NCBI RefSeq assembly: GCF_003019035.1
Contig: NZ_CP027447.1
Origin: Escherichia coli
GTDB taxonomy: Bacteria; Pseudomonadota; Gammaproteobacteria; Enterobacterales; Enterobacteriaceae
Length of the DNA: 64,000 bases
Direction: 5' to 3' (one strand)
A program made the position numbers. This document shows positions 1 to 3,000 of this stretch, one piece after another. Within the stretch, counting starts at the first letter, position 1, and each line of letters begins with the position of its first letter.

Positions 1-3000
1 TACTCAGGAACCATAGCAATATTGCTACGGCCATACAGATAAATATCCAGGTTTTCATGCAATTTGCTCAAAGAATCATTTTATGAATTACAAAGCCTTC
101 ACCCAGATCGCTATTGACCTGTTGCCCGCGAAATTGTGCAACTGCACGCAGGCGATCATGACGCATATAATCGCGTCGTTCCTGGCTTTTATGTTTTTTT
201 AATGCAGCAAGTTTGGCTGTGAAATATTCTTCTTTAACGGATTCAAAAACCTGAGGCATAAATGAAAGCCAGGTACTCGGGGTTTCGTAGCCGAGAATTT
301 GTGGAATAGTTCGGCAGGCAACCATTGAGGCTTGATAGACTGCAAGATGATCCTGATGGCGGTCAGCATCATGCATGGTGTATACACGAATGATTTCTAC
401 ATCAGACGGAATTTGATTTTTAATGATGTCTTCCAGGGCGGAAATCATATCATTGAGCTGTAAATGAGCGCGGGTGTCAGCAAAATTAAGATGAATAGTT
501 TGGTGGCACCCTAATATCTTTAGGGCGTTGCGCGATTCTTCATGGCGATCGATTATTCCATCTGTGCCAGAGTTGCCGGTAGTCATCACCACGGCTGCGA
601 TATAAATTCCTTTTTGCGCAAGACGAGCAAGCGATGCGCCACAGCCTAATTCTATATCGTCAGGATGTGCGCCAATAGCAAGGATACCCTTTCTTTTATT
701 TGCCGAAGAAAGGAGGGCTGAATCTAAAACCTTATCCACTTAATGACACTCCATTTTATTTATTATACTACAAGCACAACGATGCACTCAGAGACGTAAT
801 CTCTGGCGCAGCCAGATGCTAATTTATAAGTGTTAAATGTTGCTAATAATTGAAAAGCCAGGGCTTTCAGATCCGGGGGGGCGACTGGTTAATGTTTTTA
901 TGCAATTCATATGTTAAGTGTTTGTATGTTTGGTATGTATAGTTATTTTGTTTTATACATTGTATTTAGATGTGATTTAGTTTGTCAATTAATTGCATTT
1001 AAAAAATATGTTCTGTGAACAAGTATTGTTTATATACATTATGTGAATGTAATATGCGAGTGATTGAGAATGATACAGTGATATATATAATGCGAATATA
1101 ATAGTTTTATTATATGTATTGATATTGATAGAAATAATGAAGTAATAAATCTCGTAATGTGGTTGTTTATGCATCACTAAAATGAAGTGTAGTAATTTTC
1201 CCAATTGTTAGAACGGAGTAATTGCATATTTAATCTTTCCTTTGCCGTTTTTTTGCTAAGAATAAAATCATCTGTGCGATAACGACTAATTCTTTTAATG
1301 AATGTTTTTATTCCTGAATACTGCTCCCATAACAAGACAGGGGAGCAGACAATCATGGCAATTTCATCGCGTAACACACTTCTTGCCGCACTGGCATTCA
1401 TCGCTTTTCAGGCACAGGCGGTGAACGTCACCGTGGCGTATCAAACCTCAGCCGAACCGGCGAAAGTGGCTCAGGCCGACAACACCTTTGCTAAAGAAAG
1501 CGGAGCAACCGTGGACTGGCGTAAGTTTGACAGCGGAGCCAGCATCGTGCGGGCGCTGGCTTCAGGCGACGTGCAAATCGGCAACCTCGGTTCCAGCCCG
1601 TTAGCGGTTGCAACCAGCCAACAGGTGCCGATTGAAGTCTTCTTGCTGGCGTCAAAACTGGGTAACTCCGAAGCGCTGGTGGTAAAGAAAACTATCAGTA
1701 AACCGGAAGACTTGATTGGTAAACGCATCGCCGTACCGTTTATCTCCACCACCCACTACAGCCTGCTGGCGGCGCTGAAACACTGGGGTATTAAACCCGG
1801 GCAAGTGGAGATTGTGAACCTGCAGCCGCCCGCGATTATCGCCGCATGGCAGCGGGGAGACATTGATGGTGCTTATGTCTGGGCACCGGCGGTTAACGCC
1901 ATGGAAAAAGATGGCAAGGTGCTGACCGATTCTGAACAGGTCGGGCAGTGGGGCGCGCCGACACTGGACGTCTGGGTCGTGCGGAAAGATTTTGCCGAGA
2001 AACATCCAGAGGTCGTGAAAGCGTTCGCCAAAAGCGCCATCGATGCTCAGCAACCGTACATTGCTAACCCAGACGTGTGGCTGAAACAGCCGGAAAACAT
2101 CAGCAAACTGGCGCGTTTAAGCGGCGTGCCTGAAGGTGACGTTCCGGGGCTGGTGAAGGGGAATACCTATCTGACGCAGCAGCAACAAACGGCAGAACTG
2201 ACCGGACCGGTGAATAAAGCGATCATCGATACCGCGCAGTTTTTGAAAGATCAGGGCAAAGTCCCTGCCGTGGCGAATGATTACAGCCAGTACGTGACCT
2301 CGCGCTTCGTGCAATAAAAGGAGGCGCAGATGCTGCAAATCTCTCATCTTTACGCCGATTATGGCGGCAAACCGGCACTGGAAGATATCAACCTGACGCT
2401 GGAAAGCGGCGAGCTTCTGGTAGTTCTGGGGCCGTCTGGCTGCGGCAAAACTACGTTGCTGAATTTGATTGCCGGTTTTGTGCCTTATCAGCATGGCAGC
2501 ATTCAACTGGCGGGTAAGGGTATTCAGGGACCGGGGGCAGAGCGTGGCGTAGTTTTTCAGAATGAAGGGCTACTACCGTGGCGCAATGTACAGGACAACG
2601 TGGCATTCGGCCTGCAACTGGCAGGCGTAGAGAAAATGCAGCGACTGGAAATCGCGCACCAGATGCTGAAAAAAGTCGGCCTGGAAGGGGCGGAAAAACG
2701 CTATATCTGGCAGCTTTCCGGCGGTCAACGTCAGCGGGTAGGGATTGCCCGCGCGCTGGCGGCGAATCCCCAGCTGTTATTACTCGACGAACCGTTTGGC
2801 GCGCTGGACGCCTTCACCCGCGATCAGATGCAAACCCTGCTGCTGAAACTCTGGCAGGAGACGGGCAAGCAGGTGCTGTTGATTACCCACGATATAGAAG
2901 AAGCGGTGTTTATGGCGACTGAACTGGTTCTGCTTTCATCCGGCCCTGGCCGCGTGCTGGAGCGGCTGCCGCTCAACTTTGCTCGCCGCTTTGTTGCCGG

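What the first reader, a model, noticed from the sequence alone, without database searches (positions are those of the whole stretch)
760..1354. Highly AT-rich quasi-repetitive block upstream of tauA
About 600 bp between yaiS and tauA is extremely AT-rich, with reiterated TGTAT/TATG/ATAT motifs (for example 890-1200). This is far more than a simple promoter needs. It could be curved, H-NS-bound DNA, or could hide a small RNA or small protein; the two ORFs the track calls here (71 and 74 aa) have very low-complexity, unlikely sequences.
Basis: seen in the sequence. Interest (0 to 1): 0.2.

Follow-up and report, generated by a model that had tools for sequence, protein, structure and literature searches.

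The report
Known H-NS-bound promoter island upstream of tauA
The very AT-rich stretch between the E. coli genes yaiS and tauA is a real feature, but it is already catalogued and experimentally dissected: it is a "promoter island" coated by the silencing protein H-NS, it holds a working promoter for the foreign-looking yaiS gene cluster, and it hides no RNA or protein gene.

Summary
The window is E. coli. The yaiS-tauA spacer is 615 bp (740-1354). Its core, 890-1200, has 23% G+C, the lowest of any 300 bp in the 64 kb.

- **Repetition.** The "reiterated motifs" are no more frequent than in dinucleotide-preserving shuffles, so they are an effect of composition.
- **ORFs.** The 71-aa and 74-aa ORFs are broken by stops or frameshifts in diverged E. 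coli alleles. Rfam, folding and terminator scans find no RNA gene.
- **Already known.** The core is promoter island 383994_309 yaiS/tauA of Panyukov & Ozoline 2013, reported as H-NS-bound in all the ChIP studies they compared. Window 949-1098 is parent "P12" of Fuqua & Wagner 2024.
- **Promoter.** In P12 the bottom-strand promoter TTGACA(988-983)-18-TACAAT(964-959), pointing at yaiS, was mapped by mutagenesis and shown to be repressed by H-NS. The strand pointing at tauA was inactive.
- **tauA control.** The conserved tauA control region is only the last ~140 bp (1218-1354).
- **Origin.** The block occurs only with the variable yaiO-X-P-S cassette. It is absent from island-free and O157 genomes, and no alignable counterpart lies upstream of yaiS in the Citrobacter copy of the cassette.

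Verdict: real, ordinary, already known, low interest. Side observations are two deeply diverged haplotypes of the block, a minority TATAAT allele, and a C-rich, G-poor yaiS leader.

The parts
740..1354 (.). Whole divergent yaiS-tauA spacer (615 bp)
   Evidence: ORF and annotation boundaries.
890..1200 (.). AT-rich core, equal to published promoter island 383994_309 yaiS(-)/tauA(+)
   Evidence: G+C is 23%, the lowest in the 64 kb. TpA steps are 3.3 times the window average. The published island coordinates map to about 893-1201. The P12 sequence from that island equals window 949-1098.
959..988 (-). Sigma-70 promoter toward yaiS: TTGACA(988-983)-18-TACAAT(964-959); predicted start near 952
   Evidence: It matches 11 of 12 consensus positions, one of only two such matches in the 64 kb. 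It is identical in the diverged alleles apart from one spacer change. Shimada 2014 predicted it. Mutagenesis mapped it as P12-RFP; scrambling the boxes lowers expression 50-63 fold.
965..1008 (.). H-NS motif zone within and just upstream of the yaiS promoter
   Evidence: Loss of the motif at P12 top-strand 40-52 (window 989-1000), or of the motif in the spacer, raises RFP by about 0.5 a.u. Knock-down mutations here are rescued in a delta-hns strain.
1064..1091 (+). Promoter-like site toward tauA: TTGAGA-16-TATAAT (K-12 has TACAAT, the alternative haplotype TGCAAT)
   Evidence: It matches 11 of 12 consensus positions. The K-12 version gave no promoter activity (P12-GFP at background, no mutational hotspots). 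The TATAAT allele occurs in 139 of 5426 genomes and TACAAT in 3079. Activity of this allele is untested.
740..952 (-). Predicted 213-nt untranslated yaiS leader; its first 78 nt are C-rich and G-poor
   Evidence: The first 78 nt hold 22 C and 4 G, the 99.8th percentile of C-minus-G excess in the window. There is no significant RNA structure (z = -1.1). The leader is inferred from the promoter position, not from mapped RNA.
1218..1354 (+). tauA control region proper, with the ribosome-binding site GGGAG at 1341-1345
   Evidence: It is nearly invariant between the two island-bearing haplotypes. It is recognisably related, at about 50% identity with conserved blocks, to the tauA upstream region of island-free and O157 genomes back to about 1215; from 1317 onward it is 97-100% identical to them (37-38 of 38 positions). 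Cbl and CysB dependence comes from the literature.
989..1204 (-). 71-aa ORF: not a gene
   Evidence: Stops and a frameshift in the ECO_2_R and ZLWT alleles. No Pfam match.
1177..1401 (-). 74-aa ORF antisense to the tauA start: not a gene
   Evidence: Stops in the diverged alleles. No Pfam match.

Best explanation
The block is xenogeneic-type, extremely AT-rich DNA that forms the control region of the variable yaiS-yaiP-yaiX-yaiO cassette. It is the 'promoter island' already catalogued in the yaiS/tauA spacer.

Its composition makes it rich in sigma-70-like hexamers and in TpA-rich H-NS binding sequence. RNA polymerase and H-NS both bind it. One near-consensus promoter (988 to 959, minus strand) fires toward yaiS and is partly repressed by H-NS bound over and just upstream of it. 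The tauA promoter, activated by Cbl and CysB under sulfate starvation, is a separate module confined to the last ~140 bp before tauA.

Shown by others' experiments on K-12: H-NS and RNA polymerase binding, the position of the yaiS-directed promoter, and its repression by H-NS.

Shown here: the anatomy, the composition statistics, the absence of coding or RNA signals, and the linkage of the block to the cassette.

Inferred: that silencing of the cassette is the selected function, and that the same holds in this strain, which differs from K-12 by two bases inside the tested 150 bp.
For: - Composition is extreme.
- The only two 11-of-12 sigma-70 matches in the 64 kb lie here, back to back.
- Published island coordinates map onto 893-1201, with H-NS binding reported in all the ChIP studies compared.
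- RpoD holoenzyme, H-NS and RpoS holoenzyme bind the spacer in genomic SELEX.
- P12 equals window 949-1098.
- P12-RFP is an active promoter, about 100 times above a non-promoter parent on the plate reader. Its boxes were mapped by mutagenesis, and expression rises in delta-hns from about 445-600 to about 790.
- Segment 900-1000 is 93-94% identical between haplotypes whose neighbouring spacer segments are 66-85% identical.
- The block is present only where the yaiOXPS cassette is present.
- YaiS has a patchy distribution: Citrobacter sp. FP75 at 81% amino-acid identity, and the next best hit at 48%.
Against: - All binding and reporter data come from K-12 strains and, for the reporter, from a plasmid. 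Nothing was measured in this strain or in the chromosome.
- H-NS repression of P12-RFP is modest, under two-fold.
- Promoter-like sites are not enriched relative to the block's own dinucleotide composition (3 found, 4.0 +/- 1.7 expected). The 'island of promoters' may therefore be a by-product of AT-richness rather than a selected feature.
- PlatProm, the program that defines promoter islands, could not be run.
Confidence: 0.85

Rival explanations
1. Neutral AT-rich filler. The block is decaying foreign DNA with no selected role, and the H-NS and RNA polymerase binding and the promoter are incidental consequences of composition.
For: Motif and promoter-like counts match dinucleotide shuffles. 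Segments 800-900 and 1100-1215 diverge to 66-85% identity with indels. The Citrobacter copy of the cassette has a non-homologous upstream spacer. IS1 insertions and deletions are tolerated here.
Against: Segment 900-1000, which holds the mapped promoter and the H-NS motifs, is held at 93-94% identity between haplotypes. The promoter hexamers are invariant in all four alleles compared.
Confidence: 0.12
2. Extended tauA control region. The block acts on tauA, for example as upstream activator sites, bent DNA, or H-NS silencing that Cbl and CysB must overcome.
For: It abuts the tauA control module at about 1215. A near-consensus tauA-directed site lies at 1064-1091. Panyukov's table also lists promoter islands at ssuE/elfA and cysB/ymiA, two other sulfur-starvation loci.
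Against: Island-free genomes keep an intact tauABCD with a 305-bp spacer and none of the block, and O157 genomes also keep it without the block. The tauA-directed strand of P12 is inactive and has no mutational hotspots. No AA/TT phasing is seen.
Confidence: 0.1
3. A hidden small RNA or small-protein gene lies in the block.
For: ORFs of 71, 74 and 35 aa exist. The 35-aa ORF (911-1018, +) stays open for 30 codons in the diverged alleles. Two strong promoter-like sites are present.
Against: - The 71- and 74-aa ORFs are broken in other alleles.
- The 35-aa ORF shows 3 non-synonymous changes to 1 synonymous, has no ribosome-binding site, and sits in the promoter segment.
- No Pfam match and no Rfam match at E up to 10.
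- No terminator-like site.
- Folding is no better than shuffles (z = +0.98).
- MG1655 annotation, which includes recently found small proteins such as ykiC, has nothing here.
Confidence: 0.04
4. Remnant of a mobile element or phage.
For: It lies at the edge of a variable cassette, and IS1 elements land here in some strains.
Against: There is no similarity in 50,697 phage records. The only 'plasmid' hits are megabase-sized E. coli records of chromosome size holding the same locus. There are no terminal inverted or direct repeats.
Confidence: 0.03

Closest known systems
E. coli 'promoter islands' (Shavkunov 2009; Panyukov & Ozoline 2013): island 383994_309 yaiS/tauA
   Same: It is the same locus. 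The coordinates map to window ~893-1201, and the 150-bp P12 fragment taken from that island is window 949-1098 with two base differences. It is AT-rich, bound by H-NS and RNA polymerase, and next to genes predicted to be foreign.
   Different: Nothing essential differs. This strain carries a T instead of a C at 1088 and at 1026. With a simple consensus scan, the promoter density here is no higher than the block's own composition predicts.
H-NS xenogeneic silencing of horizontally acquired AT-rich DNA (for example the appY, bgl and LEE control regions)
   Same: G+C is far below the genome mean, TpA steps are frequent, H-NS occupancy is reported, a promoter is repressed in cis, and the block is linked to a presence/absence gene cassette.
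   Different: Measured repression is modest (under two-fold on a plasmid). No counter-silencer is known for yaiS.
Switched or horizontally transferred intergenic regions (Oren et al. 2014; the 'Piggy' analyses) - recalled from memory
   Same: The spacer exists as two haplotypes that are 66-85% identical, while in one strain the flanking yaiP and yaiS are 97-100% identical.
   Different: This was not analysed at population scale here. Recombination breakpoints are inferred from three genomes only.

Membership tests
Promoter island (Ozoline group) | Listed region of at least 300 bp with an extreme density of PlatProm-predicted start points | tested here: met
   The published entry 383994_309 yaiS(-)/tauA(+) maps to window ~893-1201. 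The P12 sequence from that island is identical to the K-12 counterpart of window 949-1098. PlatProm itself was not run. My consensus scan gives the highest density in the 64 kb, but no more than shuffles of the block.
Promoter island (Ozoline group) | Bound by RNA polymerase | not testable with these tools
   Literature only: RpoD and RpoS holoenzyme peaks in the yaiS/tauA spacer by genomic SELEX.
Promoter island (Ozoline group) | Occupied by H-NS | not testable with these tools
   Literature only: category 'A', meaning all ChIP studies compared; the HNS flag in Shimada 2014. The sequence is consistent, with TpA steps 3.3 times and H-NS-like 10-mers 3 times the window density.
Promoter island (Ozoline group) | Little productive transcription in the chromosome despite promoter competence | not testable with these tools
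   This is stated for the class as a whole, with no locus-specific data read. On a plasmid the yaiS-directed promoter is active.
Promoter island (Ozoline group) | Association with horizontally acquired genes | tested here: met
   The cassette and block are present in about 4250 of 5426 genomes and absent or replaced in the rest. YaiS has a patchy distribution. Three published predictors call the neighbouring genes foreign.
Small RNA gene | Promoter plus terminator, conserved structure or a known family | tested here: not met
   No Rfam match, no terminator-like site, folding z = +0.98.
Small-protein gene | ORF kept open with protein-level constraint, and a ribosome-binding site | tested here: not met
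   The ORFs are broken in other alleles. The 35-aa ORF shows 3 non-synonymous changes to 1 synonymous and has no Shine-Dalgarno sequence. No Pfam match.
Intrinsically curved DNA | A-tracts phased at about 10-11 bp | tested here: inconclusive
   There are seven A/T tracts of at least 4 bases and no peak in AA/TT autocorrelation at lags 10-11. No proper curvature model was run.
Tandem or dispersed repeat array | Repeated units beyond what composition gives | tested here: not met

The most novel reading that the evidence does not exclude
The validated yaiS promoter may be kept unproductive in the chromosome by two layers. The first is H-NS over the promoter. The second is Rho-dependent termination in the leader, whose first 78 nt are strongly C-rich and G-poor (22 C, 4 G) and which the plasmid reporter fragment lacked. 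This would reconcile 'active on a plasmid' with 'silent island'. A further possibility is that the two deeply diverged haplotypes of the block are exchanged by recombination independently of the flanking genes.
Probability: 0.2. Interest if true: 0.3.

Novelty: already known. Interest (0 to 1): 0.12.

Why it matters
It matters little beyond correct annotation. The long AT-rich spacer should be read as the H-NS-bound control region of the foreign yaiSPXO cassette, followed by a compact tauA promoter, and not as a candidate RNA or protein gene. The locus is a convenient natural example for studying xenogeneic silencing, because it occurs in several forms: island present in two haplotypes, island absent, and island replaced. 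The function of the core 150 bp has already been mapped at single-base resolution.

Tried and rejected
- **Repeats.** Direct, inverted and tandem repeat searches gave only trivial matches. K-mer enrichment against dinucleotide shuffles was negative.
- **RNA gene.** Rfam at E up to 10 gave only a spurious snoRNA match inside yaiS. RNA folding of the core and of the predicted leader gave no signal.
- **Protein gene.** Pfam on the three ORF products found nothing.
- **Mobile element.** Phage and plasmid similarity searches found nothing. The plasmid hits are megabase-sized E. coli records of chromosome size.
- **Other species.** Alignment of the block to the spacer upstream of yaiS in Citrobacter sp. 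FP75 showed no real homology.
- **Literature.** The original tauA promoter paper (PMC179728) is not held. The positions of the Cbl and CysB sites are therefore not verified here. I recall a Cbl site at about -112 to -68 from Bykowski et al. 2002, from memory only.

Full report
**Where we are.** The window is E. coli. Bases 700-1400 are 100% identical to strain FDAARGOS_497 and 98% identical to K-12. yaiS, a PIG-L family deacetylase (Pfam E = 4e-25), lies on the minus strand at 68-739. tauA starts at 1355 on the plus strand. The spacer between them is 615 bp.

**Checking the observation.** AT-richness is real and extreme. G+C is 30.6% over 760-1354 and 23% over 890-1200. That is the lowest 300-bp value in the whole 64 kb, whose mean is 51%. 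The + strand of the core is also nearly free of C, with 17 C against 55 G.

The "quasi-repetitive" impression does not survive a control. TGTAT, TATG, ATAT and related words occur as often as in dinucleotide-preserving shuffles, and the number of distinct 4- to 8-mers equals that of shuffles. Repeat finders report only trivial matches.

**No coding or RNA gene.**
- In two diverged E. coli alleles of the spacer (ECO_2_R and ZLWT, 87-88% identical overall), the 71-aa and 74-aa ORFs contain stops or frameshifts.
- A 35-aa ORF at 911-1018(+) remains open for 30 codons. However, it shows three non-synonymous changes to one synonymous, has no Shine-Dalgarno sequence, and lies in the promoter segment described below.
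- None of the ORF products matches Pfam.
- Rfam gives nothing at E up to 10, and there is no terminator-like site.
- The core folds no better than shuffles (z = +0.98).
- The MG1655 record, which carries recently discovered small proteins such as ykiC nearby, annotates nothing in the spacer.

**Promoter content.** A consensus scan finds 48 sites with at least 9 of 12 matches in the 64 kb. The only two with 11 of 12 both lie in this block, back to back. They are TTGACA(988-983)-18-TACAAT(964-959) on the minus strand and TTGAGA(1064-1069)-16-TATAAT(1086-1091) on the plus strand. Relative to the block's own composition, the number of promoter-like sites is not elevated (3 found, 4.0 +/- 1.7 expected).

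**What the literature already says.**
- Panyukov & Ozoline 2013 (PMC3661553, Table 1) list "383994_309 yaiS(-)/tauA(+)" among 78 E. coli promoter islands. It is marked as H-NS-bound in all the ChIP studies they compared, and as next to genes called foreign by three predictors. Relative to the tauA start this is -462 to -154, which is window ~893-1201.
- Shimada et al. 2014 (PMC3946193) found RpoD-holoenzyme binding and H-NS sites in this spacer by genomic SELEX, and predicted the same two promoters. RpoS holoenzyme also binds there.
- Fuqua & Wagner 2024 (PMC11661796) mutagenised 150-bp cores of 25 islands. Their parent P12 is the K-12 sequence of window 949-1098.

**What the P12 experiments showed.** P12-RFP, the bottom strand pointing toward yaiS, is an active promoter.
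- Losing the -35 or the -10 box lowers the score by about 1.5 a.u., and scrambling them lowers fluorescence 50-63 fold.
- Changing TACAAT to TATAAT raises expression.
- Expression rises in a delta-hns strain.
- Two H-NS motifs, one upstream of the -35 box and one upstream of the -10 box, repress in cis.

I checked the orientation of the published coordinates. Their hotspot coordinates (94, 111, 115, 121, 138) are numbered on the reverse strand, because hotspot 38 (coordinate 138) is tied to a -10 box at top-strand positions 7-13. This places the boxes at window 988-983 and 964-959. The top strand, P12-GFP, is at background and has no mutational hotspots.

**Sub-structure from comparison of alleles.** Between the K-12-like and the alternative haplotype:
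- The spacer is 93-94% identical over about 900-1000, which holds the yaiS promoter and the H-NS motifs.
- It is nearly invariant over 1218-1354.
- It is only 66-85% identical over 800-900 and 1100-1215, with a 9-bp indel.

The segment 1218-1354 is therefore the tauA control module. It is still recognisable in genomes that lack the block, at about 50% identity with conserved blocks such as TTGCCGnTTTTTTnCTAAnAA back to about 1215, and at 97-100% identity (37-38 of 38 positions) from 1317 onward. tauABCD is activated by Cbl and CysB under sulfate starvation (summarised in PMC4501297). I could not read the original paper to verify the exact binding positions.

**The block belongs to the cassette, not to tauA.**
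- Of 5426 complete E. coli genomes, about 4250 carry the whole region.
- In island-free genomes such as AR_0055, frmR sits 305 bp from tauA, with a REP-like element in between and no AT block.
- O157:H7 carries a different cassette at the same place.
- The nearest YaiS relative outside E. coli is in Citrobacter sp. FP75, at 81% amino-acid identity. There the yaiS-P-X-O genes sit at another site, downstream of a cytochrome c peroxidase-like gene. The spacer there has 31% G+C but does not align with the E. coli block.
- The next best relative is only 48% identical.
- No similarity exists in phage records or in true plasmids.

**How it most likely works.** The block is AT-rich foreign-type DNA that H-NS coats. 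Inside it, one near-consensus sigma-70 promoter drives the yaiS cassette and is damped by H-NS bound over and next to it. The tauA promoter is a separate compact module. Binding and promoter mapping were shown by others on K-12. I infer that they apply to this strain, which has two base differences in the tested 150 bp, and that silencing is the selected role. A simple test shows no A-tract phasing, so "curved DNA" is not supported.

**Side observations.**
1. The predicted yaiS leader (952 to 740) is 213 nt. Its first 78 nt have 22 C and 4 G, the 99.8th percentile of C excess in the window. This pattern resembles Rho loading sites. The reporter fragment ended at 949 and so lacked this leader. 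This is speculation and is untested.
2. At 1088 this strain has T, giving a perfect TATAAT for the tauA-directed site. 139 genomes share the T, 3079 have the K-12 C, and the alternative haplotype has TGCAAT. The absence of any P12-GFP hotspot argues that this single change does not make a strong promoter.
3. In ECO_2_R the spacer is the alternative haplotype while yaiP and yaiS are 97-100% K-12-like. This indicates recombination of the spacer independently of its flanks.
4. IS1 insertions and IS1-associated deletions occur in or next to the block in several strains.

**Verdict.** The finding is real as a compositional feature, but it is already catalogued and functionally dissected. It is ordinary for H-NS-silenced acquired DNA and of low interest.

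Noticed in passing
window 760-1215; L004 4041-4648; L005 4056-4647: The spacer exists as two deeply diverged haplotypes, 66-85% identical outside the promoter segment and differing by a 9-bp indel. About 1039 of 5426 genomes carry the alternative one. In ECO_2_R the flanking yaiP and yaiS are 97-100% K-12-like, which suggests the spacer was exchanged by recombination on its own.
   Followed up: partly
window 1215-1316 versus L006 3890-4000 and L002 5890-6000: The tauA promoter-proximal segment is only about 50% identical between cassette-bearing genomes and island-free or O157 genomes, which are 95% identical to each other. Identity jumps to 97-100% at window 1317. Conserved blocks such as TTGCCGnTTTTTTnCTAAnAA and TAATTCnTTTA may mark regulator sites.
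   Followed up: partly
window 1088: T here gives a perfect TATAAT for the tauA-directed promoter-like site. 139 genomes share it, and 3079 have the K-12 C (TACAAT), which was inactive in a reporter.
   Followed up: partly
window 875-952, minus strand: The first 78 nt of the predicted yaiS leader are C-rich and G-poor (22 C, 4 G; 99.8th percentile in the window), a Rho-loading-like composition. More generally, the + strand of the whole block has 17 C against 55 G, which is unexplained.
   Followed up: partly
window 184 (L001 6062): K-12 yaiS carries a premature TAG stop (A in K-12 where the window has G), giving 185 aa. This window and Citrobacter encode the full 223 aa.
   Followed up: yes
L003 5288-5985; L007 3295-3992; hit H15: IS1 elements sit in or beside the block in several strains. 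One interrupts the spacer. One replaces yaiS and the left part of the block, with the match resuming at window 1131. One lies 35 bp from the tauA start codon with the cassette deleted.
   Followed up: no
L002 1-5736: O157:H7 has a different cassette at the same site next to tauA: a response regulator, a MASE1 sensor kinase, a uhpC-like gene and an ABC transporter. The frmR/tauA junction is therefore a recurrent integration spot.
   Followed up: no
L006 about 3845-3890: The empty site between frmR and tauA in strain AR_0055 holds a REP-like palindromic element (GTAGGCATGATAAGAGGCGTGAGCGTCACATCAGGC).
   Followed up: no
literature (K-12 ssuE/elfA and cysB/ymiA spacers): Panyukov and Ozoline's table also lists promoter islands next to ssuE and cysB. 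Three sulfur-starvation loci therefore have such islands as neighbours, which may be coincidence.
   Followed up: no
window 5833-6228 and 15948-16373: Two further stretches have 300-bp G+C below 30% (minima 27.7% and 26.7%). They were not examined.
   Followed up: no
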